Assembly (NCBI GenBank): GCA_044450965.1
Contig: JBIOJO010000013.1
Span: forward strand, 1,853 to 65,852
Length of the DNA: 64,000 nt
Origin: Elusimicrobiota bacterium
GTDB lineage: Bacteria; Elusimicrobiota; Elusimicrobia; UBA1565; UBA9628
Direction of reading: 5' to 3'
The notes beneath the pieces are model-generated. The model was not told the DNA's origin. It saw nothing but the letters and a program-made list of their open reading frames with translations, and did not search any database. The position numbers and the translations under genes were made by a program. This document shows, piece by piece, positions 4,682-33,046 of the stretch (positions are counted from its first letter, which is position 1; each line of letters opens with the position of its first letter).

Positions 4682-5002
4682 CTAGACCGAGAACGACTTG
4701 CCGCAGGAGCAGGAGGAGACGGCCTGCGGGTTCTTCACCACGAAGCCCGAGGCCATCAGGCTTTCCGCGTAGTCCACCACGGAACCGCCGATGAAGAAGT
4801 CGGCCTTCGGGTCCACGACGGTCTTGGCTCCGAACGCCTCGAAGACGGCGTCGTCGGGATTGAGCACGTCGGAGACCTCGAACTCGTAGCTCATGCCGGA
4901 ACAGCCGCCCGCGCCCACCTTCACGCGCAGAACCGGCGCCTGGCCCTTCTTCTCGGCCAGAGCCTTGATCTTCTTGGCGGCGTTTTCGGTCAGAGTGATC
5001 AT
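4682..5002 (-). CDS. Fe-S cluster insertion protein, HesB/IscA/ErpA family
   Basis: 106 aa; Cys in GAGGCSG plus C-terminal SCSCGKSF (C-x-C) signature of A-type carriers. Confidence 0.8.
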   Translation of the reverse strand: MITLTENAAKKIKALAEKKGQAPVLRVKVGAGGCSGMSYEFEVSDVLNPDDAVFEAFGAKTVVDPKADFFIGGSVVDYAESLMASGFVVKNPQAVSSCSCGKSFSV

Positions 5003-21613: not shown

Positions 21614-23590
21614 TCAGCGCGCGCGAAGGCTCCGGACGGCGCCGTCCCAGCCGATGAAGAACGGGGACTCGGAATCCTGGAGGACCAGCCCGCCTTCCAG
21701 GACGCGCAGGCCGTCATAAGAACCGGGTTTTTCCGCGGGAACCGGCAAAGTCCAGTCCTTCACGGGCATTCCGGTGCTTTCGTCCATCTCGACCAGGCGG
21801 TTCGCCTCGAAGACGATCCAGGCGTGCCCGCCCGCGCGGTGCACCAGGCGCGGCGTGTGCGGGGGGGCTCCGACGGGGCGGGGCCAGCGCTCGAACAGGC
21901 GCTTCGACTGGATTTTTGGCAGCACCGTGCCGCTCGGGTCGATGACGTTCCAGTCGTAGGCGTACTGGTAGATCAAAGTTCCATCCGGCAGCACATCGAG
22001 TTGGAGGCCCCCGATCGTGCTGAGCCCGGACCAACCGTGCTTCCAGAGCGTCTGAATTTTCCCGTCCTCGAAGCAGACGGCCACGGCTTCCTCGTCGCCG
22101 ATCCTCACGGGGACGAAATACGCGGTCTTGCCGCCTACCTGATAGGCGAGCGCGGTCCGGGCCGACGCGTACAGGTTCTCGGCGCGGCCGGGAAGGCGCC
22201 AGGTCCGGGCGTGCGGGGCGGGGCGGGACAGCGTCAGTCCATCCTTGGCGATCGTCGCGGTGAGAGGCAGTTCCTGGGATTGCAATGAGATCAGGCCGAA
22301 TCCCGTCTTGGACTGAGAGCACGTCCGCGCCCGGCCGTCGTCGTCCATCGCGCAGAATTGCGATTCGAGCCCTTTACGGAAGCCGACGCCGAGGACGCCT
22401 CCTTGCCGCAGGAGGTTCTCGGCGGTCCCGAGTTCGGGATCGACCGGATGCACGCCGCTTTGCGGACGTCCGACCCAGAACGAGGTCTTGTTCCCGGCCG
22501 CGGTCGTGACCCGGCGCTGGACCAGCAGGCGCCCGTCCCGGTCCCACACCGCGGCGTCCACGTGGGTCCGGTAGGGCTCGTTCAGAGCGAAGCGTCCCTT
22601 CTCTCCGTCAGGCAGGAGTCGTCGCACGCGGCCGTCGGGAGAGATCCAGAACAGCCCGCCGGCGACCGTGTCGGCGAGCGCTCCGGCGGACCGGACGGCG
22701 GGATACAGCGCCGCCTCGGCCTCCTCCGTCGAGGTTCCGATGGCCAGCAGCAAAGACGCCGTGCCCGGCTTGACCAGCCGCAGCGACGAGGTCAGCTGCG
22801 CGTAGGCCAGCTCCTCCGCGCCCCAGCAGAGCAGGAGGCCGGCCGAGAACAGCAGGGCCGTGCCGAGCATCCCGCCCGCGCCGAGGGGCGCCGCGCGCTC
22901 CGCTTTGGCCGCGAGGGGCTTCAGCGCGCCGGCTTTCGCCGCGAGCCCCGCCAACGCCGCGAGAAACAGGATCGGGCCGAACGACTCCACGCGGTCGGAG
23001 AAGAACGCGGGGTATTGCAGGCATAAGAGGATGGGGACCGTCTCGGCGGCGGCGAAGACGCTCCCGATCAGGCCGCCGGCGACGGCGTGTCCCAGGACGT
23101 AGGAGGCGGCGTAGCACGACGCGATCAGCTCGAAGGCCAGGAACGCGACCAGGCCGCGGTACATCATGGCGTGCGTCCAGGACGTCCAGGTCGCCGGACC
23201 GTTGAAGTCGAAGATGGCCCTGCTCCAGCCGGGCGCGACCAGTCCGCCGACGACGGCGGTGAGCAATATGAGGAGGACGAACTGGATCAGCGCGCCCGTC
23301 AGGCCGCGGAGGAGGCGTCCGGTCGCCGACGCGGGAAGCGGCGCGTCGGCATCGCGGACGGCGGCGGCGCGCAGGCCGGCGCCGGCGGAGGAACCGAAGA
23401 TCACGGCGGCGATCGGCAGTCCGACGATGGCCCACCACCACATCCCGGCCTGCAAGGAGACTCCGACGTCCAGGCCTTTCTGCTTGGCGACCAGGTATGA
23501 GAGCGGGGGGAGCAGGACGCAGGACGCGGCCAGGCCGATCGAGGTCATGCGGTTCTTGCGGAGCTCGAGCGAGATCAGCGCGGTATTCAT
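21614..23590 (-). CDS. ABC-2 type permease fused to a large C-terminal extracytoplasmic (beta-rich) domain
   Basis: About 6 TM helices in the N-terminal 330 aa then a 330-aa W/G-rich domain; overlaps the upstream ABC ATPase stop. Confidence 0.55.
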   Translation of the reverse strand: MNTALISLELRKNRMTSIGLAASCVLLPPLSYLVAKQKGLDVGVSLQAGMWWWAIVGLPIAAVIFGSSAGAGLRAAAVRDADAPLPASATGRLLRGLTGALIQFVLLILLTAVVGGLVAPGWSRAIFDFNGPATWTSWTHAMMYRGLVAFLAFELIASCYAASYVLGHAVAGGLIGSVFAAAETVPILLCLQYPAFFSDRVESFGPILFLAALAGLAAKAGALKPLAAKAERAAPLGAGGMLGTALLFSAGLLLCWGAEELAYAQLTSSLRLVKPGTASLLLAIGTSTEEAEAALYPAVRSAGALADTVAGGLFWISPDGRVRRLLPDGEKGRFALNEPYRTHVDAAVWDRDGRLLVQRRVTTAAGNKTSFWVGRPQSGVHPVDPELGTAENLLRQGGVLGVGFRKGLESQFCAMDDDGRARTCSQSKTGFGLISLQSQELPLTATIAKDGLTLSRPAPHARTWRLPGRAENLYASARTALAYQVGGKTAYFVPVRIGDEEAVAVCFEDGKIQTLWKHGWSGLSTIGGLQLDVLPDGTLIYQYAYDWNVIDPSGTVLPKIQSKRLFERWPRPVGAPPHTPRLVHRAGGHAWIVFEANRLVEMDESTGMPVKDWTLPVPAEKPGSYDGLRVLEGGLVLQDSESPFFIGWDGAVRSLRAR

Positions 23591-24459
23591 CGGGAACCTC
23601 CGTGAACGGACAGCAGGGCTTTGATCGTTTCGGTCATGGGCAGGGCTTCCTCGTCGGCGGCCTCCAGCCCGGCCGCGAGAAGGCGTCCGCGGGCGTCGGC
23701 GTCGAGCGCCGCCCAGGCGCCGACGGGGCCGGAGGAGGCCAGAGCCGCGATGCCGTCGGGGGCGCGGAAGCCGGGGCCCGGACGGCCGGTGACGCGGCGC
23801 GCCTCGGTCCGCAGCTTCTCGGCGTCGTAGATTCCGGCGATCTTTCCGCCGGACATGACCCAGATCTCGTCCAGCAGGCCGGACAGCTCATCAAGCCGGT
23901 GGCTGGCGATCAGGACGGTCTTCCCCGCCTCGCCCAGCTCGGAGACCAGGCCGGAGAGGACCTCCTCGCGCACCAGCGCGTCCAGCCCGGACGTGGGCTC
24001 GTCCAGCAGATATAAGGACGGGTCGTGCGCGGCGGCGCACACCCAGGCCAGCTTGCCGAGCGTGCCCTTGCTGGCGCCGGCGACGCGGATCTCCGGGGCC
24101 AGGCCCAGCCGGCGGCACAGCGCGTCGGCGCGCGCCGCGTCCCAGCGGTCGAACAGCTTGGCGCGAAGGGCCAGCGCCTCCCCGACGGTCATGAAATCGT
24201 GAAAGACGGGGCGCTCGGGCACGTAGCCGACGAGGCGCCGGATGCCGCCGTCGCCGTTCAGGCGGTTCCCCAGAACCTCGACGCGGCCCGATTCCGGAGC
24301 CAGAAGGTCGAGCAGGACCTTGAACAAGGTCGTCTTGCCCTCGCCGTTGCGTCCGAGCAGGCCGATGACCTTGCCCTCGTCGGCGCGGACAGACAGGCCG
24401 TCCAGCACGCGCCGTCCGTCGAAACTGCGCGTCACGCCGTCTAGGATGATGGGATTCAC
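23587..24459 (-). CDS. ABC transporter ATP-binding protein
   Basis: Walker A GRNGEGKTT, signature LSGG-like GTLGK, Walker B LYLLDEPTSGLD, H-loop. Confidence 0.85.
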   Translation of the reverse strand: MNPIILDGVTRSFDGRRVLDGLSVRADEGKVIGLLGRNGEGKTTLFKVLLDLLAPESGRVEVLGNRLNGDGGIRRLVGYVPERPVFHDFMTVGEALALRAKLFDRWDAARADALCRRLGLAPEIRVAGASKGTLGKLAWVCAAAHDPSLYLLDEPTSGLDALVREEVLSGLVSELGEAGKTVLIASHRLDELSGLLDEIWVMSGGKIAGIYDAEKLRTEARRVTGRPGPGFRAPDGIAALASSGPVGAWAALDADARGRLLAAGLEAADEEALPMTETIKALLSVHGGSR

Positions 24460-24827
24460 GGTTCCTCCCGGCGGGCCTCGCGGACCGCCGCTTCGACGTC
24501 GTTCCAGCTGAGACCGCCGCGTCGCGCCTGGCGGAGGGACTCGCGCAGGCGGACGCGCATGTCGTCCAGCCCGCTCTTCGCCATGCGGGGGGCGGCGTCG
24601 GCGACCACGGTGCCTTCGCCGCGGCGGGCGTCCAGCACGCCTTCGACGACCAGCTCCCGCACGGCGCGGGCGACGGTGTTGGGGTTGACCTTCAGGGTCT
24701 CGGCGAGTCCGCGGATGGACGGCGCCGGATCCCCGGGGCGGAGCGCGCCGCGGGCGATGAGGCCGCGCAGGCCGGCCTTGATCTGCTCGTTCAGCGGCAC
24801 CGGCGAACGCGAGTCGATGTTGATCAT
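24456..24827 (-). CDS. GntR family transcriptional regulator, YtrA subfamily
   Basis: 123 aa; winged HTH (PSIRGLAETLKVNPNTVARAVREL) with the short C-terminus typical of YtrA; first gene of a GntR-ABC-permease operon. Confidence 0.8.
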   Translation of the reverse strand: MINIDSRSPVPLNEQIKAGLRGLIARGALRPGDPAPSIRGLAETLKVNPNTVARAVRELVVEGVLDARRGEGTVVADAAPRMAKSGLDDMRVRLRESLRQARRGGLSWNDVEAAVREARREEP

Positions 24828-24828
24828 A

Positions 24829-24862
24829 TGTGTACTAGTGAACTAGTACACTAGTATTCTAG
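24829..24862. promoter_or_regulatory. Palindromic operator immediately upstream of the gntR start
   Basis: GTGTACTAGT ga ACTAGTACAC (perfect 10-bp inverted repeat) followed by a third ACTAGT; a second palindrome GTCAAGGG gt CCCTTGAC lies at about 24881-24898. Confidence 0.5.
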
Positions 24863-25359
24863 CCCCGGGCCTTCATTTTGTCAAGGGGTCCCTTGACGCG
24901 AACGGCCGACGCCTCTATTCTGACAGCGGAGGAACCATGTCCACCCTGCTGATTTTCCTGCTGGGAGCGCCGCTTCTGCTGTTGGGAATCGCGCCGGCGG
25001 CGGCGCTGTGGCGGCGCCGCGGCGAAAAGAGGACCGTCCACCGGCGCGCGCCCGCGCCGCCGCTGATCATGCCGACCGCCGAGGAGACGGCGGCGAGCAT
25101 CGAGCGTTTTCGCGACGCCGTCCGCCGCTTCCGGGAGACCGAAGCGGCATGGGAGTCGGAGCGGATTCGGGCCTTGACGGGACACGACGGCGGGGGTATC
25201 CTTCGTCGACGGCGCCCTCGGAGGACATCCCGATGAACCCCCTCGCTTTTCTCGCCTTGATCCCGCTCTCGATGCTGGCCGCGATGTACCTTTACGAGCG
25301 CACGCACCAGGAAGTCGCCATGCGGGTGCGCTCCGACGGCCGCCGCGCGCCGCGCTGAT

Positions 25360-26142
25360 CTAGCGCTGGCAGGACGGGCAGTAGCGGCTGGCGCGGCCGC
25401 CGATGCTTCGGCGCGTGTCCAGCGTCTTGGCTCCGCAGGTTCCGCATATCTCCCGGCCGTAGACCATGACGCCCATCTGCATGCGGCCCGGGCGACCCAG
25501 CGGATCCAGGAAAGACTCGTCGTCGAGGGTGGCTCCGCCGGCCTCCACGCCGCGGCGAAGGATGTCCGCGCAGGCGAGGGCCAGGAGATCGCTTTCGGCG
25601 CGGCTCAGCGACTTGCCCGCCCGTCCGGGGCGGACCTTCGCCTGATGCAGCGCCTCGGTGGCATAGATGTTTCCCAGTCCCGCGATCAGACGCTGGTCCA
25701 TGATCAGGGCCTTCACCGGCGCGGTGCGCTTGCGCAGAACCTTCCAAAGATAGTCCGCGCTGAATTCCGGATCCATGGGCTCCGGACCCAGCTTCGGCAG
25801 GGGGCAGCCGACGCGGCCGAAGCGGCGGGAATCGTGGAAAAGCACTTCATCGGCGTCGATGCGCATGGCGAATCGGACGTGGGGGCTCACGCCGCCCACG
25901 GTGATTCGCCCGGACATGCCAAGATGGAACACGACGCTGGGGCGTCCTTCCAGGTCGGCGACCAGGTATTTGCCGCGGCGGGAGAAGCCTTTGATCGTCG
26001 CGCCGTTGAGAGCCTGGACGGCGGCCGCGGGCGGGCGGCGGTAGAACGTGGGCTTGCCGATCTTCGCCGAGGAAATGATCTTGCCCGCGTAGCGTTCGTG
26101 CAGGACGCGGCGCACGGTCTCGACCTCCGGCAGTTCGGGCAT
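25360..26142 (-). CDS. fpg: formamidopyrimidine-DNA glycosylase
   Basis: N-terminal MPELPEVE, C-terminal zinc finger CGTCG...CPSCQ. Confidence 0.85.
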   Translation of the reverse strand: MPELPEVETVRRVLHERYAGKIISSAKIGKPTFYRRPPAAAVQALNGATIKGFSRRGKYLVADLEGRPSVVFHLGMSGRITVGGVSPHVRFAMRIDADEVLFHDSRRFGRVGCPLPKLGPEPMDPEFSADYLWKVLRKRTAPVKALIMDQRLIAGLGNIYATEALHQAKVRPGRAGKSLSRAESDLLALACADILRRGVEAGGATLDDESFLDPLGRPGRMQMGVMVYGREICGTCGAKTLDTRRSIGGRASRYCPSCQR

Positions 26143-26678
26143 CAGCGGGCGCCTTGGTTCCAGGGCATTCGCGCGAGGATCATCGCCATCGTGCAGGTGT
26201 CGGTGACGGCGGAAAACATCAGCCCCGCGGCCACGAAGGCCGACAGGCCGAAAAATGCGCGATGAACAAGGAGGCCGAGGGCGATCCCCGCGGCGACCAG
26301 GAGGCCGGCGGCGAAGCGTACCTGTCGTTCCAGGCTCCAGACCCGGGAGAAGCCGCGCACGACCGGGCTTCCCGACGCGATCCACGCGTCCAGCCCTCCG
26401 CGCACGACCTGAATGTCGCGGTGGCCCAGCTGGTGGAGCTGGGTGGCGGCGGACGCCGCGCGCGCGCCCGAACGGCACAGCAGGTACACGGGACGGGAAC
26501 GATCGAGCGCACCCACGTGCTCGCGCAGCCGCGATAGCGGCAGGTTCAGCGCGCCTTCGACGCGGAGAGCGTCGATCTCGGAGACTTCCCGCACGTCCAC
26601 CAGCTGCGCGCCGCCGCTTTGATCGACGGCCCGGTGCGCCGCCGCCGGCTCGATGAAGGAGTAGTGCTCCTCGATCAT
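26142..26678 (-). CDS. rhodanese-domain sulfurtransferase with a C-terminal 2-TM anchor (YgaP-like)
   Basis: Rhodanese active site VYLLCRSGARAASAATQL; two C-terminal TM helices; start overlaps the moeZ stop. Confidence 0.65.
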   Translation of the reverse strand: MIEEHYSFIEPAAAHRAVDQSGGAQLVDVREVSEIDALRVEGALNLPLSRLREHVGALDRSRPVYLLCRSGARAASAATQLHQLGHRDIQVVRGGLDAWIASGSPVVRGFSRVWSLERQVRFAAGLLVAAGIALGLLVHRAFFGLSAFVAAGLMFSAVTDTCTMAMILARMPWNQGAR

Positions 26679-27820
26679 CAGTAGGTCGGAACCGACGGGT
26701 CGATATCCTCCGACCACGCGGTGATGCCGCCGGCGACGTTCGTCGCGTCGAAGCCTTGCGCGCGCAGCAGCTGCACGGCGCGGGCGGAGCGGCCGCCCAT
26801 CTTGCAGTGCACGATCAGCTTCGCGGCCTTGTCCAGCTCGCCGACGCGCTGGGGCAGCTCGCCCAGGGGGATCAGCTTGGATCCGGGGATCTTGGCGATC
26901 TCGTACTCGTGCGGCTCGCGCACGTCCAGAAGGACGAACTTCTCCTTCTTGTCGATCTTGGCCTTCAGCTCTACGACGGTGATCTCGGGAATCATGTTGG
27001 CGGGTTTCTCCTTGAGGCCGCAGAAAGCCTCGTAATCGATGGGGGCGGTGATCGTCGGCTTGTCGCCGCAGACGGGGCAGGCCGGATTCTTCTTCACCTT
27101 CAGCGTGCGCCACGACTGCTCGAGCGCATCGTACAACATCAGGCGTCCGACCAACGGCTTGCCGATTCCGAGGATGAGCTTGATCGTCTCGATGGCCTGC
27201 ATGGTGCCGATCACGCCGGGGAGCACGCCCAGCACGCCGCCCTCGGCGCACGAGGGCACCAATCCCGGGGGCGGCGGCTCGGGGTAGAGGCAGCGGTAGC
27301 AGGGGCCGTCCTTGGCTCCGAACACGGACAACTGTCCTTCGAACCTGAATATCGAGCCGTACGCGTTGGGCTTGCCGGTCAAGACGCAGGCGTCGTTCAC
27401 GAGATATCTCGTCGGAAAATTGTCCGTCCCATCGGCGACCACGTCGTACTGCTTGAAGAGTTCGATGGCGTTCGCCGAACTCAGTTTGATTTCGTGGGTT
27501 TCGACGGATATGTAGGGATTCAACGCCAGAAGACGTTTCTTGGCGGACATGAGTTTGGGCGTGCCGATGGCGGCCGTGTCATGAATGATCTGCCGTTGAA
27601 GGTTCGACTCATCGACGACGTCGAAATCCACCAAGCCGATGCGCCCCACGCCGGCCGCCGCCAGGTACAGCGCCAGCGGGGAACCGAGGCCGCCGGCCCC
27701 GATGCAGAGCACCGAGGAATTCTTCAGCTTCTTTTGCCCTTCCGGTCCCACCTCCGGCATGATCAAATGCCGGTTGTACCGGAGAAGATCCTGCTTCGTC
27801 AGTTCGGCGTTAGGCGCCAT
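26678..27820 (-). CDS. moeZ: sulfur-carrier adenylyltransferase MoeZ/MoeB (E1-like with a C-terminal rhodanese domain)
   Basis: ThiF/MoeB Rossmann motif GAGGLGSP, CxxC pairs, C-terminal rhodanese HCKMGGRS. Confidence 0.85.
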   Translation of the reverse strand: MAPNAELTKQDLLRYNRHLIMPEVGPEGQKKLKNSSVLCIGAGGLGSPLALYLAAAGVGRIGLVDFDVVDESNLQRQIIHDTAAIGTPKLMSAKKRLLALNPYISVETHEIKLSSANAIELFKQYDVVADGTDNFPTRYLVNDACVLTGKPNAYGSIFRFEGQLSVFGAKDGPCYRCLYPEPPPPGLVPSCAEGGVLGVLPGVIGTMQAIETIKLILGIGKPLVGRLMLYDALEQSWRTLKVKKNPACPVCGDKPTITAPIDYEAFCGLKEKPANMIPEITVVELKAKIDKKEKFVLLDVREPHEYEIAKIPGSKLIPLGELPQRVGELDKAAKLIVHCKMGGRSARAVQLLRAQGFDATNVAGGITAWSEDIDPSVPTY

Positions 27821-28100
27821 GCGTCGAACCCCCCGCGATGGCGGGCACGATGAGAATGGTATCTCCGTCCTTGACCGGCGTCGCCAGCCCCTGCTTGTCG
27901 CGGGCGTCGTCGTCATTCACATAAACATTGACGAACGAGCGTAATTTCCCGTCGGGAGACAGCAATTGCGCCTTCAATCGGTCGTGCTGCTTGAACAAGA
28001 CGTCCAAAGCCTCTCCGACGTTCTTGGCGTCCACGGTTATCTTTTCTTGTTTGTCGGCAAACGCTCGCAGCGCGGTGGGCAGTCGTATCTCGATAGCCAT
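27810..28100 (-). CDS. cysO: CysO/MoaD/ThiS-like sulfur carrier protein with a 5-residue extension after the Gly-Gly
   Basis: 96 aa beta-grasp; ends ...IVPAIAGG-STHGA; GGAGGG RBS. Confidence 0.65.
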   Translation of the reverse strand: MAIEIRLPTALRAFADKQEKITVDAKNVGEALDVLFKQHDRLKAQLLSPDGKLRSFVNVYVNDDDARDKQGLATPVKDGDTILIVPAIAGGSTHGA

Positions 28101-28106
28101 ATAAAT

Positions 28107-28553
28107 TCATCCCTCCAAATATATCGTTTCTTCGACGAAGGAGCGTCCGTCCTCGGTCCGCTGCCAGCTGCGCGAGTCGGCGATCTTGCCGTCGTCCACG
28201 CGCACGATCCAGTAGCTGAGGCACGGCCACGCCATCATCAGGTCGAACGGCGACGGCCAGGCCGGCGCGTTCGGATGCGAATGAAAGAAGCCCACGACCC
28301 CGCGGCCCGTGCCGGACATTTCGGCTTCGACCTTCGCCAGCAGGCGCGGTTCGATCAGGTAGCGGTTCGTCTTGGCCGACGAGTCCCAGCCGTTGGGCAG
28401 GGGGCGCGCTTCGTCCACGACGACGGGGCGGCCCGGCGCGTCGAAAGAGTCGGGGAGCGGGCCGAGGAGCAGGCCGCAGCCCTCGTCGGGGAAGGCCTTC
28501 TCGCAGGTCTCCACGACGATCTTCTCCAGCGCCCGGCCGACCCGCAGGCTCAC
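28107..28553 (-). CDS. mec: JAMM/MPN+ metalloprotease (Mec+-like)
   Basis: JAMM motif GFFHSHPNAPAWPSPFD plus upstream E; GTG start overlaps the cysM stop (start call uncertain). Confidence 0.6.
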   Translation of the reverse strand: MSLRVGRALEKIVVETCEKAFPDEGCGLLLGPLPDSFDAPGRPVVVDEARPLPNGWDSSAKTNRYLIEPRLLAKVEAEMSGTGRGVVGFFHSHPNAPAWPSPFDLMMAWPCLSYWIVRVDDGKIADSRSWQRTEDGRSFVEETIYLEG

Positions 28554-29479
28554 GGCGTCCAAAACCTCTCGCCCAGGTAGCGCTCCCCGGCGTCCGGAAA
28601 AACGGTGGCGACGACGGCCTCGCGGCCCTGCTCGGCCAGGTCCCGGCCGAGACGCACGGCCGCGGCCAGGTTCGCGCCGCCCGAGGGTCCCAGCAGGATG
28701 CCGCCGCGCCGCGCCAGAACGCGCGCGGCCGTCTGGGCTTCCTCGGTGGAGACCTCGATTTTGGAGTCCGCCACGGCCATGTCGTAGATGGCGGGGACGA
28801 TGGACGTGTCCATGTGCTTGAGGCCTTCCAGTCCGTGCATGGGGCCGTCGGGCTCCATGGAGACCAGGCGGATGTCGGGGTTCAGTTCGCGCAGGCGCCG
28901 ACCGGCGCCCACGAAGGTGCCGCTGGTGCCCAGGCCCGCGACGAAGTGGGTGACCTTGCCGCCGGTTTGAGCGAAGATCTCCGGAGCCGTCGTCTCGTAG
29001 TGCGCGCGCCACGTCATGGGGTTCGAGTACTGGTCGGCGTAGTAATAGCGGTCGGGCTCGGCCTTCATCATCAGCCGGACTTCGCGGATGGCGCCGTCGG
29101 ATCCTTCGAGGGGGTCGGTGAACAACAGCTCGACGCCGTACGCCTCCAGGATGGCGCGGCGGTGCTTGGAGATGGAGCCGGGAACCGCGAGGCTGACCTT
29201 GCGTCCCAGGCGCGCGCCGATCCACGCGTAGGCGATGCCGGTGTTGCCCGAGGAGGAGTCCAGCAGGATTCGGTCCTTGTCGAGCTTCCCGGTCGCGAGC
29301 GCGTCGCGGAAGATGAACCAGCCGGCCCGGTCCTTGATTGAGCCGCCGGGGTTGTGCCACTCGGCCTTGCCCATCACGCGGACTTTCTCGCCCAGCTCCG
29401 GGAACGCGAACGATACGTCGAGGAGGGGGGTGTCGCCGACCTTCACGTCGGGGAATACGGCGGGGGAGGCGGTCGGCAT
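28550..29479 (-). CDS. cysM: cysteine synthase CysM-type (PLP-dependent, thiocarboxylate-using)
   Basis: PLP lysine motif GGSIKDRAG, SSGNTG, GLGTSGT glycine loop. Confidence 0.85.
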   Translation of the reverse strand: MPTASPAVFPDVKVGDTPLLDVSFAFPELGEKVRVMGKAEWHNPGGSIKDRAGWFIFRDALATGKLDKDRILLDSSSGNTGIAYAWIGARLGRKVSLAVPGSISKHRRAILEAYGVELLFTDPLEGSDGAIREVRLMMKAEPDRYYYADQYSNPMTWRAHYETTAPEIFAQTGGKVTHFVAGLGTSGTFVGAGRRLRELNPDIRLVSMEPDGPMHGLEGLKHMDTSIVPAIYDMAVADSKIEVSTEEAQTAARVLARRGGILLGPSGGANLAAAVRLGRDLAEQGREAVVATVFPDAGERYLGERFWTP

Positions 29480-29485
29480 CGGGTC

Positions 29486-29514
29486 CAGTATATGATACCT
29501 GACCTATTTGGTCA
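29486..29514 (-). promoter_or_regulatory. Candidate sigma70 promoter for the cysM operon with an inverted repeat across the -35
   Basis: On the minus strand TTGACC-17nt-TATACT; TGACCaaataGGTCA palindrome overlaps the -35. Confidence 0.4.
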
Positions 29515-29536
29515 AGATTGACGGCCGCTCATCACG

Positions 29537-30868
29537 TTAATCGCGTGGGAGCCGGTTCACATGCATGTCGATGGTGTCCGCTTCGAAGTTGTAGCTGTCG
29601 CGGCGCCAGATGTTGACGAACATGTAGGCCATCGGGAGGTACATCGCGGCGAAAGCGACGAGCTTGGCGGAATTGGGCCAGTGCGAGACGCCGATGGCGG
29701 CCATTCCCGCCATGCCGGCGAAAAATCCGATCATGCCCCGGAAGGCGTTCCTCTGATATCCCTTCTGGGCCGCGGCCTTGATCGCCTTCATCTCTTCCCA
29801 TCCGGGCATGGCGTCGCCGCCTCCGATGATCCAGCCGGTGAGCCAGGCGTGGTCGGACGACGCGTACCGAGTGCGGTCGATGGCCGAGCCGTAGAACTTC
29901 TCGACTTTGAGGACGTCCGTTCCGCGCGCGGCGCCCATTTCGAAGCGCGCGAGCGCCGCCTTCAGCTTCGGGTTTTCGCTGTAGGCCGCCCGGGCGCGGT
30001 CCGCGTGCATGTCCAGGAACTCGGCGATCTTCGTCGTCCCGGAGCGGGTCTCCGGGGATTCCTCATATTCCTTGGTCAAGGCTTCGGCGATATCGGGCTG
30101 GCGGAGGGCGGCCTTGAGGATCTCCGTCTGGCGAATGGTCCACGGACCGGGCGCGGCGCGGCCCAGGCTTTCCAGGCGGGCGCGATACAGCTCGGTGAGG
30201 GTCTGGTAGCGCTTCTCGGGCGCCTCGTCGGCGGCGTGCCAGCCGTCGGCGTCGCGGGCGATGATGTTCGTCCCGTCGAATTCCCCGGCGGCTATTTTCC
30301 CGGGCAGGTCATGAATGAACGCGTCGATCAGCTCCGAGCGTTTCGTCTCGTAGGCCTTCACCGATGCGACCGCCGCGGCGACTTGTTCGGCGCGCTCGGG
30401 CGACAGGTACAGGGCGATTCCGGCCGCGTTGGCGGTCTTGTGCGAGGCGTTCTGATAGGTCCCAATGCGGACGGGTTCCGCGACGGAGGCCAGGGCCTCG
30501 TCCGCGACGGCGGCGGCGTGGGCCTCGGCCGGGACGGCGGCGCGCGACAGGACCGCGAGTTTTTCGGCGGTGGGGAGAGCGGCGAAAGTCTGGGGCGTGA
30601 GGCCCTGCGCCTGGATCGCGTCGGTCAGCGGCGTGAGGGCTTGCGGGGCGGAGACGAAGGGGAGGCGGCCGCCGGCGTCGGGAGAGCTCAGCGCGGTCAG
30701 CGACGTGTATCCCAATCCCGCGACGCGATCCGAGCCCGCCGCGGTGACGGCCGCGGCCATGGGGCCAACCCAGGCCCCGGCCTCCGCGGCGGCGCCGGCG
30801 ACGACCTGGGCGCGGGCGGAGACGGAAAGGATCAGGAGCGCGGCGAGAGGAGACAGGAGTTTCACCAT
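29537..30868 (-). CDS. hypothetical secreted Ala-rich protein with a C-terminal membrane anchor
   Basis: Signal peptide MVKLLSPLAALLILSVSARA; C-terminal hydrophobic segment. Confidence 0.4.
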   Translation of the reverse strand: MVKLLSPLAALLILSVSARAQVVAGAAAEAGAWVGPMAAAVTAAGSDRVAGLGYTSLTALSSPDAGGRLPFVSAPQALTPLTDAIQAQGLTPQTFAALPTAEKLAVLSRAAVPAEAHAAAVADEALASVAEPVRIGTYQNASHKTANAAGIALYLSPERAEQVAAAVASVKAYETKRSELIDAFIHDLPGKIAAGEFDGTNIIARDADGWHAADEAPEKRYQTLTELYRARLESLGRAAPGPWTIRQTEILKAALRQPDIAEALTKEYEESPETRSGTTKIAEFLDMHADRARAAYSENPKLKAALARFEMGAARGTDVLKVEKFYGSAIDRTRYASSDHAWLTGWIIGGGDAMPGWEEMKAIKAAAQKGYQRNAFRGMIGFFAGMAGMAAIGVSHWPNSAKLVAFAAMYLPMAYMFVNIWRRDSYNFEADTIDMHVNRLPRD

Positions 30869-30955
30869 GGAGACAGTGTAGCTCCACGGCGGTTTCCCGC
30901 CGAGTGTCCTAAGACCCAAACGCCTCGGGTCTTGGGTCCCAGCCCCGCTTGGGCG

Positions 30956-33046
30956 CTAGGCCTTTTTCGGCGGCTCGCCGGAGTCCTGAGGGACCAGGCG
31001 CATGCCGGAGCCCATCAGGCTGGCCATGAACGCGGACAGCATGTTCGCGCTGCCGCCGCCGTTGCCGTCGCCGCCCACCATGATGTCGGGGGTGATCTTG
31101 ACCTTGCCGTCGGAGACGCGCTTCATGACCTCAATCATGGCCAGCGGTCCTTGACCGACGGCGGCGGCCTGGCGGACGTACGCCTCCGCGGTGGCCTGTC
31201 CGATGGCCAGGATCTTCTCGCCTTCGGCCTTGCCGACGGCCGCGATGCCGGCCGCGATGCCTTCCTGCTCCAGGCGCGTGGACTGGCTGCGCCCTTCGGC
31301 CGTGATGATGGCGCTTTGCTTGGACTGGGTGGCGATCTGGACGTCGATCTCGGCCTTCACCAGCTGGGGCTGGAGGTCGGCCTGGGCCTTGGTCTTCTCC
31401 ATCTCGCGGCGGCGCGCCTCGGCTTCCTGCTGGGAGTCGAACATGGACATCTGCTGGGCGGCCACGACTTTGTTGGTGAGCGTCTGCATCAGGCGCTCGG
31501 GCAGCACGATCTGGCAGATCAGGACGGACACGCACTCGACGTGGTACTTGGTGAGCTCCTCGACGATGTGCTCCTCGGCCTTGCGCTGTTCCTCATGCCG
31601 GTCCTGCATGAACTTCATGGCTTCGGACGACGAGGCCTGGTTGCGGAAGGAGGAGTCGATCAGCGGATGGACGACGTGCTCGATCAGGTTGTCGATGGTG
31701 CCGATGCGCGCCAGCATGTGCGGCGCCTGCTCGGGCAGGACGCGCAGGATGACCTTGACCTCGACCGTCATCTCGAAGCCGTCCTTGGAGACGATGGCCA
31801 GCGGGTTGAACGCGCGCTCGCCGCGCTGGGATTTTTCCTCGGCCCAGTCGATGGTGACGTTGGTGGTGGGGATGATATGCGGAGTGTAGGCCAGCTTATT
31901 GAGGTAGTAGGTGCCGGGTCCCAGCACTTCGCGCTGGATGCCGCGGTAGCCGGAGTCCACGACGTAGCGTTCGATGCCGTCCTTGAGCCGGTCCTCGGGC
32001 CTGGCGTTGGGGGAACCCGCAGCGGCGCCGATGGCGGCCGGATCCTTGCCGATGTTGGAGACGATGACCGAGACCTCGCCGCGCTCGACCTGGAGCACGT
32101 TGTCCAAAGTGGCGTCGAACATCAGCGGGTTGATGTAGTAGGTGCCGGGCTTCAGGAAATCCAACTGCGGTCCGCGCTGTCCGGCCGCCGCCAAGAACGC
32201 GGCGCCGTCCTGGAAATCCTTGTGGCCGGCGACGGCCTTGGCCACGTACTCGGACGGGGGCAGGGGTTCGCCGTCGCGCGCGGTCACCATGCCGACCTTC
32301 TGGGCGGGGATGAGGATGGCGTCGCGCATCTCCACCTGGAACAGCGCGGTGTTGACGCGGTAGGAGCCGGGGAGCAGGATGTCGATCTGCGGCCCCTTCT
32401 GTCCGTTCTTGGCGAGGAAGGCCTCGCCGTTCTGGAAGTTCTCGTGGCCGGGGACGCTGCGGCCGAGCAGGCGCCCGGAGGAGATGGGCTGGCCATCGGT
32501 GGCGACGACGACGCCGATCTTGTTGTTGGGGATGCGCAGGGCGGGCTTCTTGGTGATCTTGAAGAGATACGGGTTCACGCGGTAGGTGCCGGGCGGCAGG
32601 ATCTGGACCTGCGGGCCCTTCTCGCCGCCGCCGGTCAGGAAGGCCTCTCCGTCCTGGAACAGGTTGTGGTTGTCCAGCGCCTTGCCGAAGATCCGTCCCG
32701 GAGGCACCGGGGCGCCGTCGATGGATTCGACGAGTCCGATCTCGTTCTCGGCGATCATGACCATGCCCTGCTTCTCGGTGCTGTAAAGGAAAGGAGTCAG
32801 CAGGTGCAGGCCCGGGCCGAGGATGCGGGCCTGGATGCCGACCTCGCTGGCCATGGCGACAACGCGGCCTTCCGGCATGCCGCGCCCGAACCAGCGCCGT
32901 TCCAGCACCGCGATCTGGGTGCCGCCGATGATGACGATGGAGTTGTAAAGGAAGACGACGACGGCGAAGAAGCCCAGGACCAGCAAGGCGGGGCCGAATT
33001 CGACGCTGATGCCGAGCGTGGCGAGGACGGGGGCGAGGGGATTCAT
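30956..33046 (-). CDS. flotillin-like SPFH/band-7 protein (YqiK family) with five internal repeats in the N-terminal extension
   Basis: N-terminal TM; repeated G(E/A)AFL..G.(K/R)GPQ..L.PG.YR(V/I)N units; SPFH domain and long Ala/Glu-rich coiled coil. Confidence 0.7.
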   Translation of the reverse strand: MNPLAPVLATLGISVEFGPALLVLGFFAVVVFLYNSIVIIGGTQIAVLERRWFGRGMPEGRVVAMASEVGIQARILGPGLHLLTPFLYSTEKQGMVMIAENEIGLVESIDGAPVPPGRIFGKALDNHNLFQDGEAFLTGGGEKGPQVQILPPGTYRVNPYLFKITKKPALRIPNNKIGVVVATDGQPISSGRLLGRSVPGHENFQNGEAFLAKNGQKGPQIDILLPGSYRVNTALFQVEMRDAILIPAQKVGMVTARDGEPLPPSEYVAKAVAGHKDFQDGAAFLAAAGQRGPQLDFLKPGTYYINPLMFDATLDNVLQVERGEVSVIVSNIGKDPAAIGAAAGSPNARPEDRLKDGIERYVVDSGYRGIQREVLGPGTYYLNKLAYTPHIIPTTNVTIDWAEEKSQRGERAFNPLAIVSKDGFEMTVEVKVILRVLPEQAPHMLARIGTIDNLIEHVVHPLIDSSFRNQASSSEAMKFMQDRHEEQRKAEEHIVEELTKYHVECVSVLICQIVLPERLMQTLTNKVVAAQQMSMFDSQQEAEARRREMEKTKAQADLQPQLVKAEIDVQIATQSKQSAIITAEGRSQSTRLEQEGIAAGIAAVGKAEGEKILAIGQATAEAYVRQAAAVGQGPLAMIEVMKRVSDGKVKITPDIMVGGDGNGGGSANMLSAFMASLMGSGMRLVPQDSGEPPKKA

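What the first reader, a model, noticed from the sequence alone, without database searches (positions are those of the whole stretch)
26142..29479. CysO-dependent cysteine pathway operon whose sulfur carrier needs proteolytic activation
Six co-directional, overlapping genes read cysM - JAMM protease (mec) - cysO - moeZ - rhodanese(YgaP-like) - fpg. The CysO homolog ends GG-STHGA, so the Gly-Gly terminus needed for thiocarboxylate formation is masked by 5 residues. The adjacent JAMM/MPN+ protease is then predicted to process the carrier before MoeZ adenylation, as QbsD does for QbsE; it may additionally hydrolyse adducts as in Mec+/CysO/CysM of M. tuberculosis. The fused membrane-anchored rhodanese and the coupling to fpg are unusual.
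Basis: partly seen in the sequence, partly recalled or inferred. Interest (0 to 1): 0.6.

Follow-up and report, generated by a model that had tools for sequence, protein, structure and literature searches.

The report
Cysteine operon with a capped sulfur carrier
This is a protein-thiocarboxylate cysteine-synthesis operon whose small sulfur-carrier protein carries five extra residues that the neighbouring metalloprotease probably has to trim off; it is a real and well-conserved arrangement, but of a kind already known.

Summary
Six co-directional minus-strand genes (29479 to 25360) encode a CysM-type PLP enzyme, a JAMM/MPN+ peptidase, a 96-aa ThiS/MoaD carrier ending AIAGG-STHGA, a ThiF+rhodanese E1, a YgaP-like membrane rhodanese and Fpg.

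The carrier aligns end to end with M. tuberculosis CysO, whose terminal Gly-Gly matches G90-G91.

The JAMM motif (E24, H91-x-H93-x7-S101-x2-D104) is invariant in 77 orthologues.

- **Conservation.** The core cysM-JAMM-cysO-E1 is kept in 75 of 80 related loci.
- **Tails.** Of 199 carrier homologues only 9 end at Gly-Gly. The rest carry hypervariable tails of 1-16 aa or are fused in frame to the E1, as in three Elusimicrobiota relatives.
- **Origin of the tail.** The window's tail is the remnant of that fusion linker, split by a 1-nt frameshift. The same split occurs in three independent assemblies.
- **Tail-less homologues.** Three of the four examined lie in loci without a JAMM gene.

JAMM-dependent maturation at Gly91 is therefore well supported by inference, though no cleavage was shown.

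It is not new in kind. This operon class was catalogued in 2006, and JAMM trimming of pro-carriers is known or proposed for QbsE, HcyS, MetO, CxnE and MoaD-MoaE.

The YgaP-like gene is a variable accessory, and the fpg linkage is specific to this lineage.

The parts
29487..29515 (-). Sigma-70-like promoter TTGACC-17 nt-TATACT. Its -10 hexamer ends 7 nt before the cysM ATG, so the cysM mRNA is probably leaderless. A possible operator overlaps the -35 hexamer and spacer.
   Evidence: 10 of 12 consensus positions; 4 promoter-like sites found against 0.4 expected in shuffles. Sequence read. The promoter and spacer are conserved in six related loci while the flanks differ.
28550..29479 (-). cysM-type fold-type-II PLP enzyme (309 aa), the predicted CysO-thiocarboxylate-dependent cysteine synthase.
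   Evidence: Pfam PALP 2.9e-59. The best NCBIfam model is cysM at 290.7 bits, below its 394 cutoff; cysK scores 239. 37% identical to M. tuberculosis CysM. The PLP lysine K49, S77-G-N-T-G81 and G184-T-x-G-T188 are invariant in 74 orthologues.
28107..28553 (-). JAMM/MPN+ zinc peptidase (148 aa). Predicted to act both as the pro-CysO maturase and as the CysO-Cys hydrolase.
   Evidence: Pfam Prok-JAB 2.8e-18. Best solved relative is 2kcq_A, E=6.5e-13, aligned over residues 17-144. E24, H91, H93, S101 and D104 are invariant in 77 of 77 orthologues.
27828..28100 (-). Mature part of cysO: residues 1-91, a beta-grasp sulfur carrier ending in Gly90-Gly91.
   Evidence: The ThiS profile ends at residue 91. 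Aligns to M. tuberculosis CysO, which ends at GG. AlphaFold2 pLDDT is about 90 through residue 88. A89, G90 and G91 are invariant.
27810..27827 (-). Pro-peptide tail S92-T-H-G-A96 plus the stop codon. It overlaps the E1 start codon and is predicted to be cleaved off.
   Evidence: The tail has pLDDT below 50. Homologous tails are hypervariable in length and sequence.
27829..27834 (-). A GGGGGG run spanning the Gly90-Gly91 codons, 8 nt upstream of the E1 ATG. It probably serves as the Shine-Dalgarno site for the E1 gene.
   Evidence: The split relatives L081, L082 and L083 have GGAGGC here, whereas the fused relatives L001-L003 have GGCGGC or GGCGGT.
26678..27820 (-). E1-like adenylyltransferase/sulfurtransferase (380 aa): a ThiF domain with two CXXC motifs plus a C-terminal rhodanese domain.
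   Evidence: Pfam ThiF 2.4e-83 and Rhodanese 1.4e-18. NCBIfam MoeB PRK07411 567 bits; MoeZ PRK07878 504 bits. C174, C177, C191, C248, C251 and the rhodanese C339 are invariant in 72 of 72 orthologues.
26142..26678 (-). YgaP-like membrane rhodanese (178 aa). A variable accessory gene and a possible sulfur-relay input.
   Evidence: Pfam Rhodanese plus YgaP-like_TM. Matches the E. coli YgaP TM domain (2mpn, 4.7e-13) and its rhodanese domain (2moi, 2e-4). Among relatives it is present only in the window and L001.
25360..26142 (-). fpg, formamidopyrimidine-DNA glycosylase (260 aa). It is the last gene of the operon and is translationally coupled to the gene before it.
   Evidence: NCBIfam fpg models score above their cutoffs: 231 bits against 212, and 210.7 against 203.3. 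fpg follows the E1 gene in L001, L002, L003 and L081, but in none of the non-Elusimicrobiota loci.

Best explanation
This is a protein-thiocarboxylate cysteine-biosynthesis operon of the CysM/CysO/Mec+/MoeZ type, in which the carrier is made as a pro-protein.

Proposed steps:
1. One promoter drives a probably leaderless six-gene transcript with translationally coupled genes.
2. Pro-CysO (96 aa) cannot be adenylated, because Gly91 is not its C-terminus. The adjacent JAMM zinc peptidase hydrolyses the Gly91-Ser92 bond and releases STHGA.
3. The ThiF domain of the E1 adenylates the Gly91 carboxylate. A persulfide on Cys339 of the fused rhodanese domain converts the adenylate into CysO-COSH. The YgaP-like membrane rhodanese may feed sulfane sulfur into this step.
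4. CysM forms the PLP-aminoacrylate from O-phosphoserine or O-acetylserine, and the thiocarboxylate attacks it. After an S-to-N acyl shift the product is CysO-Gly-Gly-Cys.
5. The same JAMM hydrolyses the bond after Gly91 and releases cysteine. Chemically this is the same reaction as the maturation step.

The five-residue tail is an evolutionary remnant. The nearest relatives encode a CysO-linker-E1 fusion. In this lineage a 1-nt insertion split the gene, leaving S-T from the old linker and H-G-A read out of frame across the new E1 start codon.

What is shown: gene order, domain identities, catalytic motifs, the position of the GG, hypervariability of the tails, the fusions, synteny, and co-occurrence with JAMM.

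What is inferred: every chemical step, the identity of the processing protease, and the acceptor substrate.
For: - Domains and motifs.
- The carrier aligns end to end with M. tuberculosis CysO, with GG at G90-G91.
- cysM-JAMM-cysO-E1 synteny holds in 75 of 80 loci across Elusimicrobiota, Acidobacteriota, Armatimonadota, Chloroflexota and Gemmatimonadota.
- Only 9 of 199 homologues end at GG. The majority-residue frequency is typically about 0.8-1.0 (range 0.36-1.0) in the 20 columns before GG and at most 0.32 after it.
- 29 of 79 genomic homologues are in-frame fusions to the E1, including L001-L003. A fusion can only work if it is cleaved after GG.
- The frameshift relationship between window and fused relatives is visible at DNA level.
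- The same split, with an 11-13 nt overlap, occurs in the independent assemblies L081, L082 and L083.
- The tail-less homologues L007, L084 and L086 sit in loci without JAMM or cysM, whereas all 77 tailed or fused loci have JAMM.
- The tail is predicted to be disordered.
- Established chemistry and precedents: the M. tuberculosis pathway (PMC3227635); QbsD/QbsE and the proposed CxnF/CxnE pair (PMC5925218); Mec maturing MetO (preprint 10.1101/2024.10.14.618325); DRJAMM cleaving MoaD-MoaE (PMC8832034); and the 2006 prediction that JAB peptidases free the C-terminus of fused ThiS/MoaD (PMC1779556).
Against: - No biochemical evidence exists for this locus or this clade.
- The PLP enzyme is not specifically closest to M. 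tuberculosis CysM. It scores 156 bits against it, compared with 188-198 bits for E. coli CysM and plant O-acetylserine sulfhydrylases. It also lacks the roughly 20-residue C-terminal tail of the mycobacterial enzyme.
- All cysteine-synthase NCBIfam models score below their cutoffs.
- JAMM would be retained for cysteine release even if it did not process the tail, so its presence alone does not prove a maturase role.
- The association between tails and JAMM rests on clades that are not phylogenetically independent.
- NCBIfam's SAMP1 model scores just above its cutoff (65.6 against 60), so a protein-conjugation role is not excluded.
Confidence: 0.8

Rival explanations
1. The module is primarily a ubiquitin-like protein-conjugation system, like SAMP/UbaA/JAMM1 or TtuB. 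The carrier would be attached to lysines of target proteins and JAMM would act as the deconjugase. Cysteine synthesis would be secondary or absent.
For: The NCBIfam SAMP1 equivalog scores 65.6 bits, above its cutoff of 60. The best NCBIfam hit for the JAMM is the halophile desampylase model, and the E1 matches the UbaA model at 353 bits. Iyer et al. proposed such roles for JAB-linked operons.
Against: The desampylase model (51 bits against 130) and the UbaA model (353 against 450) are both below cutoff. The carrier is closer to M. tuberculosis CysO (E=1.9e-16) than to SAMP1 structures (4e-6 to 3e-5). A cysteine-synthase gene is tightly linked in 75 of 80 loci. Where it is missing it is replaced by a MetY-type sulfhydrylase (L024, L060), which points to amino-acid sulfur chemistry.
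Confidence: 0.07
2. The tail is removed by some other protease, such as a housekeeping carboxypeptidase, and the JAMM serves only to hydrolyse the CysO-Cys adduct.
For: In M. tuberculosis the JAMM (Mec+) is present although CysO already ends in GG. JAMM presence therefore needs no processing role. One-residue tails, the commonest class (53 of 199), could be trimmed by a carboxypeptidase.
Against: The in-frame CysO-E1 fusions (29 of 79) need an endoproteolytic cut exactly after GG. That bond is the same one JAMM must cut in CysO-GG-Cys. Experimental precedents show JAMM enzymes doing both jobs or cutting fusions. No other protease gene is conserved in the neighbourhood.
Confidence: 0.08
3. The separate 96-aa cysO is an assembly or sequencing indel artefact, and the real gene is a CysO-E1 fusion as in L001-L003.
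For: A single extra nucleotide separates the window from the fused reading frame. The window is probably from a metagenome-assembled genome.
Against: Three independent assemblies (L081 from ENA, L082 from NCBI, L083 from Logan) have the same split, with 11-13 nt overlaps and 96-aa products. Several more 95-96-aa homologues carry out-of-frame-type tails. Split forms have a proper start codon and an SD-like GGAGG or GGGGG in the Gly-Gly codons, which fused forms lack. Either way the carrier would still need cleavage.
Confidence: 0.02
4. The tail is not removed, and the capped carrier is inactive or has a non-sulfur role in this organism.
For: No direct evidence of cleavage.
Against: The body of the protein, the invariant A-G-G and all partner active sites are under strong conservation. 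Tails occur in about 95% of the clade, which cannot all be dead genes.
Confidence: 0.03

Closest known systems
M. tuberculosis CysM / CysO / Mec+ / MoeZ(R) cysteine pathway (Burns et al. 2005; summarised in PMC3227635)
   Same: It has the same four protein types, with the PLP enzyme, the JAMM and the carrier clustered together. The carrier aligns end to end with CysO (E=1.9e-16) and the Gly-Gly falls at the same position. The PLP enzyme is 37% identical to CysM and has a basic residue (K221) at the R220 position.
   Different: M. tuberculosis CysO ends at Gly-Gly and needs no maturation. Here five residues follow it. The E1 here is encoded in the operon and keeps both CXXC motifs, so it is MoeBR-like. 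The PLP enzyme lacks the mycobacterial C-terminal tail and is not specifically closest to M. tuberculosis CysM. The actinobacterial operon carries ClpS and other genes instead (class 4d in PMC1779556).
Operon class 4c of Iyer, Burroughs and Aravind 2006 (ThiS/MoaD + E1-rhodanese + JAB + cysteine synthase; PMC1779556)
   Same: The gene content is exactly the same. The class was listed for Acidobacteria (Solibacter), Chloroflexus, Salinibacter, Rubrobacter and others. The same paper predicted that JAB peptidases free the C-terminus of fused ThiS/MoaD proteins.
   Different: In the passages retrieved from that paper I saw nothing on the near-universal tails or on CysO-E1 fusions in this class. 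It also predates the Elusimicrobiota genomes.
[quoted passage not shown] The details are from my own knowledge; the paper is not held in the library.
   Same: The carrier is made with an extra C-terminal residue (Ala) after Gly-Gly. One JAMM-type metalloprotease both matures it and releases the amino-acid product.
   Different: The product there is homocysteine, made via a fold-type-I MetY enzyme. Two relatives found here (L024, L060) do have a MetY-type enzyme in place of CysM.
QbsE / QbsD / QbsC (thioquinolobactin) and CxnE / CxnF (chuangxinmycin) (PMC5925218)
   Same: Pro-carriers with 2 residues (CF) or 10 residues (SEAARAEESR) after Gly-Gly, a co-encoded JAMM proposed or shown to expose the Gly-Gly, and activation by a MoeZ-type E1.
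   Different: These are secondary-metabolite pathways, and no cysteine synthase is involved.
MoaD-MoaE fusions cleaved by JAMM (D. radiodurans DRJAMM, PMC8832034) and M. tuberculosis MoaX (PMC4326299)
   Same: A sulfur carrier fused upstream of a partner enzyme must be cut after its C-terminal Gly to become active. This parallels the CysO-E1 fusions in L001-L003.
   Different: The fusion partner there is the synthase large subunit, not the E1, and the pathway is molybdopterin synthesis.
Eukaryotic ubiquitin and Ubl precursors processed by deubiquitinases (textbook knowledge)
   Same: The carrier is synthesised with extra C-terminal residues or as a fusion protein. The same class of peptidase both matures it and removes it from its product.
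   Different: There is no E2 or E3 here, the product is a free amino acid, and the chemistry goes through a thiocarboxylate rather than a thioester cascade.

Membership tests
CysO-type ThiS/MoaD sulfur carrier | Beta-grasp ThiS/MoaD fold | tested here: met
   Pfam ThiS 3e-14. The AlphaFold2 model has mean pLDDT 86 and beta-grasp secondary-structure elements.
CysO-type ThiS/MoaD sulfur carrier | A Gly-Gly equivalent to the C-terminal Gly-Gly of characterised CysO | tested here: met
   G90-G91 align with the terminal GG of 3dwg_C and 4n6e_B. A89, G90 and G91 are invariant in 37 homologues.
CysO-type ThiS/MoaD sulfur carrier | The Gly-Gly is the free C-terminus of the primary translation product | tested here: not met
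   Five residues (STHGA) follow the GG. The protein is therefore a pro-form, as are about 95% of its clade.
CysO-type ThiS/MoaD sulfur carrier | Carries a C-terminal thiocarboxylate and donates sulfur to CysM | not testable with these tools
   Needs mass spectrometry or enzymology.
Mec+ / JAMM (MPN+) metallopeptidase | The E...HxHx7Sx2D zinc-site motif | tested here: met
   E24, H91, H93, S101 and D104 are present and invariant in 77 of 77 orthologues. Pfam Prok-JAB scores above its cutoff.
Mec+ / JAMM (MPN+) metallopeptidase | Direct sequence relationship to M. tuberculosis Rv1334 (Mec+) | not tested
   No Rv1334 sequence was available. My recalled sequence failed an exact look-up and was discarded.
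Mec+ / JAMM (MPN+) metallopeptidase | Hydrolyses the bond after CysO Gly-Gly, in both the adduct and the pro-peptide | not testable with these tools
   Inferred from synteny, from the fusions and from published precedents.
M. tuberculosis-type CysM (O-phosphoserine sulfhydrylase) | Fold-type-II PLP enzyme with the Schiff-base lysine and the substrate and phosphate loops | tested here: met
   PALP 2.9e-59. K49, SGNTG(77-81) and GT-x-GT(184-188) are invariant.
M. tuberculosis-type CysM (O-phosphoserine sulfhydrylase) | Arg220, the O-phosphoserine specificity determinant reported by Agren et al. 2008 (own knowledge) | tested here: inconclusive
   Lys221 aligns with Arg220. Across 74 orthologues this position is K in 70 and R in 4. 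A basic residue is kept, but a choice between O-phosphoserine and O-acetylserine cannot be made.
M. tuberculosis-type CysM (O-phosphoserine sulfhydrylase) | The C-terminal extension of about 20 residues seen in mycobacterial CysM | tested here: not met
   The alignment ends at M. tuberculosis residue 301 of 323. The window protein stops 7 residues later.
M. tuberculosis-type CysM (O-phosphoserine sulfhydrylase) | Closer to M. tuberculosis CysM than to other cysteine synthases | tested here: not met
   156 bits to 3dki/3dwg, against 188 bits to E. coli CysM and 189-198 bits to plant-type enzymes.
MoeZ/MoeZR as defined by Leimkuhler and co-workers (PMC3227635) | ThiF/MoeB adenylation domain plus a C-terminal rhodanese domain with an active-site Cys | tested here: met
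   Pfam ThiF plus Rhodanese. C339 is invariant.
MoeZ/MoeZR as defined by Leimkuhler and co-workers (PMC3227635) | First CXXC motif replaced by NYRD, and second CXXC motif missing | tested here: not met
   CYRC (174-177) and CPVC (248-251) are present and invariant in 72 of 72 orthologues. This puts the enzyme in the MoeBR class. In NCBIfam the MoeB model (567 bits) outscores the MoeZ model (504 bits).
Pro-carrier plus JAMM maturase systems (QbsE/QbsD, HcyS/HcyD, CxnE/CxnF, MetO/Mec) | Extra residues after the carrier Gly-Gly, and a JAMM gene in the same cluster | tested here: met
   All 77 tailed or fused loci have an adjacent JAMM.
Pro-carrier plus JAMM maturase systems (QbsE/QbsD, HcyS/HcyD, CxnE/CxnF, MetO/Mec) | Demonstrated cleavage of the tail by the JAMM | not testable with these tools
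   Needs an in vitro assay.
YgaP-type membrane rhodanese | N-terminal rhodanese domain with an active-site Cys plus a C-terminal two-helix YgaP TM domain | tested here: met
   Pfam Rhodanese 1.1e-14 and YgaP-like_TM at 28.7 bits, above its 25.3 cutoff. Matches PDB 2mpn (4.7e-13) and 2moi (2e-4). The CRSGARA loop is present.
Archaeal SAMP1 / UbaA / desampylase conjugation system | All three NCBIfam equivalog models score above their cutoffs | tested here: not met
   SAMP1 65.6 against 60: met. UbaA 353.5 against 450: not met. Desampylase 51.4 against 130: not met.

The most novel reading that the evidence does not exclude
In a large non-actinobacterial clade (Acidobacteriota, Elusimicrobiota, Armatimonadota and others), the pro-form is the default state of CysO. 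In this clade cysO and its E1 gene have repeatedly fused and split through indels in a disposable linker. That would make the JAMM an obligate maturase and the system a prokaryotic counterpart of ubiquitin-precursor processing. Maturation might also gate sulfur flux, and in this lineage the module may be wired with Fpg and a YgaP-like rhodanese into one oxidative-stress operon under a conserved operator. In the papers I searched and read I found no systematic description of this pattern.
Probability: 0.35. Interest if true: 0.45.

Novelty: new member of a known kind. Interest (0 to 1): 0.3.

Why it matters
The locus extends the protein-thiocarboxylate route to cysteine to Elusimicrobiota, which are poorly studied and mostly uncultured. 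Until now this route has been characterised in M. tuberculosis.

The comparative data show that outside the characterised actinobacterial systems the carrier is almost always made capped or fused to its E1. Annotation pipelines and metabolic reconstructions should therefore expect a JAMM maturation step. They should also not call these genes MoaD, MoeB or SAMP1.

The natural series of fused, split and tailed variants is a ready-made substrate panel. It could be used to define the P1' tolerance of bacterial JAMM peptidases, which are relatives of the eukaryotic proteasome and signalosome deubiquitinases.

Tried and rejected
1. Exact look-up of the window CysO in the assembly index found nothing. 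Close homologues had to be used instead.
2. I recalled the M. tuberculosis Mec+ (Rv1334) sequence from memory so that I could compare it directly. The exact look-up failed, so the recalled sequence was not used.
3. My recalled M. tuberculosis CysM sequence was checked against PDB 3dwg_A. It was identical over 323 residues, and only then was it used.
4. I looked for a riboswitch or other RNA element upstream. There is no Rfam hit at gathering score anywhere in the window, and the intergenic region is only 57 nt.
5. No convincing intrinsic terminator follows fpg. The terminator-like hits all lie inside coding sequence.
6. The papers by Krishnamoorthy and Begley (2011) and Tran et al. (2011) on HcyS/HcyD are not held in the library. 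Those details are therefore marked as my own knowledge.
7. Two literature searches were swamped by unrelated 'HCys' and 'mec' matches.
8. I considered and rejected the idea that the cysO/E1 split is an assembly artefact, and the idea of programmed frameshifting. There is no slippery site, and the split forms carry their own SD and start codon.
9. I considered whether the YgaP-like gene and fpg are integral to the pathway and rejected it. They are absent from all non-Elusimicrobiota loci, and the YgaP-like gene is present in only 2 of 6 close relatives.

Full report
**1. What is there**

The region is G+C-rich (61-72%), and many of the long ORFs on both strands are spurious. The real genes are six co-directional minus-strand ORFs.

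| Gene | Window coordinates | Length |
|---|---|---|
| cysM | 28550-29479 | 309 aa |
| JAMM | 28107-28553 | 148 aa (GTG start); 151 aa from the TTG at 28562 |
| cysO | 27810-28100 | 96 aa |
| E1 ('moeZ') | 26678-27820 | 380 aa |
| Rhodanese + TM protein | 26142-26678 | 178 aa |
| fpg | 25360-26142 | 260 aa |

The junctions are as follows:
- cysM/JAMM: 4-nt overlap.
- JAMM/cysO: 6-nt gap.
- cysO/E1: 11-nt overlap.
- E1/rhodanese: 1-nt overlap.
- rhodanese/fpg: 1-nt overlap.

The genes are therefore translationally coupled.

A sigma-70-like promoter, TTGACC-17-TATACT, sits at 29515-29487 in the 57-nt gap upstream of cysM. Its -10 hexamer ends 7 nt before the ATG, and there is no Shine-Dalgarno sequence, so the transcript is probably leaderless.

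**2. The carrier and its tail**

- The ThiS profile ends exactly at residue 91.
- The protein aligns end to end with M. tuberculosis CysO (3dwg_C, E=1.9e-16) and with the A. orientalis carrier (4n6e_B, E=1.4e-17). The C-terminal Gly-Gly of both falls on G90-G91.
- Residues 92-96 (STHGA) are extra.
- An AlphaFold2 model built on 37 homologues gives a confident beta-grasp fold, with pLDDT about 90 through residue 88. Residues 90-96 have pLDDT below 50.

**3. The JAMM and the other enzymes**

- **JAMM.** It carries E24 and H91-S-H93-x7-S101-x2-D104. These five residues are invariant in 77 orthologues taken from related loci.
- **PLP enzyme.**
  - K49, S77-G-N-T-G81 and G184-T-x-G-T188 are invariant.
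  - It scores best against the cysM NCBIfam model, though below its cutoff.
  - It is 37% identical to M. tuberculosis CysM. I checked that sequence against PDB 3dwg_A before using it.
  - Lys221 aligns with the mycobacterial Arg220. This position is K in 70 and R in 4 of 74 orthologues.
  - The mycobacterial C-terminal tail is absent.
  - The enzyme is not specifically nearest to M. tuberculosis CysM.
  - Whether the acceptor substrate is O-phosphoserine or O-acetylserine stays open.
- **E1.**
  - It has the GxGxxG loop and the conserved C191.
  - It has the rhodanese C339 and both CXXC motifs, all invariant in 72 of 72 orthologues.
  - By the nomenclature in PMC3227635 this makes it a MoeB-rhodanese ('MoeBR') type, not the NYRD-type MoeZR.
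  - The functional label 'moeZ' is reasonable, but the class label is not.

**4. Comparative evidence**

*Protein search.* A protein search with the carrier returned 2,443 homologues. Of the best 120, only 7 end at Gly-Gly. Forty-six have one extra residue, others have 2-14, and 14 run on into a ThiF domain. An alignment of 37 homologues shows an invariant A-G-G followed by no conservation of sequence or length.

*Genome scan.* A scan of one genome per species found 527 or more relatives.
- The nearest are Elusimicrobiota MAGs at 83-90% identity. The window therefore most likely comes from that phylum.
- The next nearest are Acidobacteriota at about 55-60%.
- I annotated the 80 retained loci with the six window proteins. 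The order cysM-JAMM-cysO-E1 appears in 75 of the 80.
- In 29 of 79 loci the carrier is fused in frame to the E1 through a variable linker. This includes all three Elusimicrobiota genomes L001-L003. Only 2 loci end at Gly-Gly.

*Pooled set (199 sequences, with some redundancy).*

| Residues after Gly-Gly | Sequences |
|---|---|
| 0 | 9 |
| 1 | 53 |
| 2-5 | 69 |
| 6-16 | 25 |
| more than 16 (fusions or read-through) | 43 |

- The majority-residue frequency is mostly about 0.8-1.0 (range 0.36-1.0) in the 20 columns before Gly-Gly. It is at most 0.32 in the tail columns.
- The residue just after Gly-Gly is most often R, A or S, but 16 different residues occur.

*Tail-less homologues.*
- L007, L084 and L086 lie in ThiS-E1 pairs with no JAMM and no cysM nearby.
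- L007 is labelled as a Thermoplasmatota archaeon, and L086 carries a fibrillarin gene, so these loci are probably archaeal.
- All 77 tailed or fused loci have a JAMM gene. Fisher's exact test gives p=5e-5, but the loci are not phylogenetically independent.

A disposable, hypervariable extension that always travels with a JAMM gene is what a cleaved pro-peptide should look like. Fusions that cannot function uncut point the same way.

**5. Origin of this particular tail**

At DNA level the window reads GGG GGT TCG ACG C|ATG GCG CCT AAC GCC GAA CTG. The fused relative L002 reads GGC GGT GCG ACG CTG GCC GCG GAA GCG GAG CTC.
- One extra nucleotide shifts the frame.
- The carrier then terminates after S-T-H-G-A.
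- The E1 restarts at an ATG inside the old linker.

This is not an assembly error. Three independent assemblies have the same split, with 11-13 nt overlaps and 96-aa products: L081 from ENA, L082 from NCBI and L083 from Logan.

In the split forms the Gly-Gly codons are GGGGGT or GGAGGC, which is Shine-Dalgarno-like and lies 6-8 nt before the E1 start. In the fused forms they are GGCGGC or GGCGGT. The sample is small, three lineages against three. It suggests that the tail length is set by the geometry of translational coupling and is tolerated because the tail is discarded.

**6. Mechanism**

The best-supported account is the M. tuberculosis pathway (PMC3227635) preceded by a maturation step.
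1. JAMM cuts the Gly91-Ser92 bond.
2. The E1 adenylates Gly91, and its rhodanese persulfide makes CysO-COSH.
3. CysM couples CysO-COSH to the aminoacrylate.
4. After the acyl shift, JAMM cuts the bond after Gly91 again and releases cysteine.

Both JAMM steps hydrolyse a peptide bond after the same Gly-Gly, so no new activity has to be assumed. None of these steps has been shown for this locus.

**7. The accessory genes**

- **Rhodanese + TM protein.** It matches both domains of E. coli YgaP, so the architecture is ordinary. Among the close relatives it is present only in the window and L001. It is absent from L081 (the closest, at 93%), L002 and L003. It may deliver sulfane sulfur, but it is not a core part of the system.
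- **fpg.** It follows the E1 in the four Elusimicrobiota loci that extend that far (L001, L002, L003, L081), as it does in the window, and nowhere else. A shared oxidative-stress rationale is possible, because expression of the mycobacterial pathway is induced by oxidative stress (PMC3227635). That rationale is speculative, and lineage-specific synteny is the simpler reading.

**8. Comparison with what is known**

- The operon content is class 4c of Iyer, Burroughs and Aravind (2006). They listed it for Solibacter, Chloroflexus, Salinibacter and others, and predicted that JAB peptidases free the C-terminus of fused ThiS/MoaD (PMC1779556).
- JAMM maturation of pro-carriers is documented or proposed in several systems:
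  - QbsE/QbsD and CxnE/CxnF (PMC5925218).
  - MetO/Mec (preprint 10.1101/2024.10.14.618325).
  - HcyS/HcyD (own knowledge).
  - MoaD-MoaE fusions cleaved by DRJAMM (PMC8832034).
- Two relatives, L024 and L060, carry a MetY-type enzyme instead of CysM. This links the clade to the HcyS-type homocysteine route.

**9. Verdict**

In kind this is a new member of a known class. The modest added value is the comparative picture:
- Pro-forms and E1 fusions are the rule in this clade.
- Fused and split forms interconvert through frameshifts in the linker.
- The diglycine codons double as the ribosome-binding site of the E1 gene.

Scores: interest 0.3; confidence in the mechanism 0.8.

Noticed in passing
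window 29479-29545 (minus strand); L081:3262-3330, L082:6562-6630, and upstream of cysM in L001-L003: The cysM promoter is conserved in six Elusimicrobiota loci while the flanking sequence is not. This covers the -35 hexamer, a 17-nt spacer containing AAATAGTCAGGTAT, and the -10 hexamer. The ATG lies 5-7 nt after the -10 hexamer, which implies a leaderless mRNA. A partial inverted repeat (GATACTTGAC...GTCAGGTATC) overlaps the -35 hexamer and spacer and could be an operator.
   Followed up: partly
window 27829-27834; L081 around 4960-4991; L082 around 8260-8291; L001-L003 junctions: Where cysO and the E1 are separate genes, the Gly-Gly codons are GGGGGT or GGAGGC (SD-like) and lie 6-8 nt before the E1 start codon. 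Where the two are fused, the codons are GGCGGC or GGCGGT. The sample is only three lineages against three.
   Followed up: partly
L024:5314-6525 (+) and L060:4446-5708 (-): In two Acidobacteriota loci the cysteine synthase next to JAMM-cysO is replaced by a Cys_Met_Meta_PP (MetY/MetB-type) enzyme. This suggests the same carrier family also serves a homocysteine route like that of Wolinella HcyS.
   Followed up: partly
L007, L084:5001-6425, L086:2842-4264: The few homologues that end exactly at Gly-Gly (motif PSVAGG) sit in ThiS-E1 pairs with no JAMM or cysM nearby. L007 is labelled a Thermoplasmatota archaeon and L086 carries a fibrillarin gene, so these loci are probably archaeal. In L084 and L086 the pair is preceded by two conserved small ORFs of about 105-116 aa; the two from L084 had no Pfam match when scanned.
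   Followed up: partly
window 26678-27820 (E1), residue C267: Besides the expected cysteines, Cys267 (motif FCG, in the linker between the ThiF and rhodanese domains) is invariant in 72 of 72 orthologues. I know of no assigned role for it.
   Followed up: no
window 28550-29479 (cysM), residues 215-222: There is a clade-specific invariant loop, H215-G-x-E218-G-x-K221-H222, where CysK-type enzymes have a longer loop and M. tuberculosis CysM has Y-A-L-R220-N. It may form the docking or substrate site for the carrier tail.
   Followed up: no
window 29537-30919 (-) and 30956-33046 (-): Directly upstream of the operon lies a 460-aa protein with no Pfam match. A similar unannotated 443-aa gene precedes cysM in L081. 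Beyond it is a 696-aa SPFH/Band 7 protein.
   Followed up: no
window 21614-24884 (-): Downstream of fpg there is a separate unit with a near-consensus promoter (TTGACA-17-TAGAAT, 24884-24856). It is followed by a GntR-family regulator, an ABC ATPase and a 658-aa membrane protein with no Pfam match. This looks like a GntR/ABC-type efflux or sensing module.
   Followed up: no
whole window 1-64000: No Rfam family reaches its gathering score anywhere in the 64 kb, so there is no tRNA, rRNA or riboswitch.
   Followed up: yes
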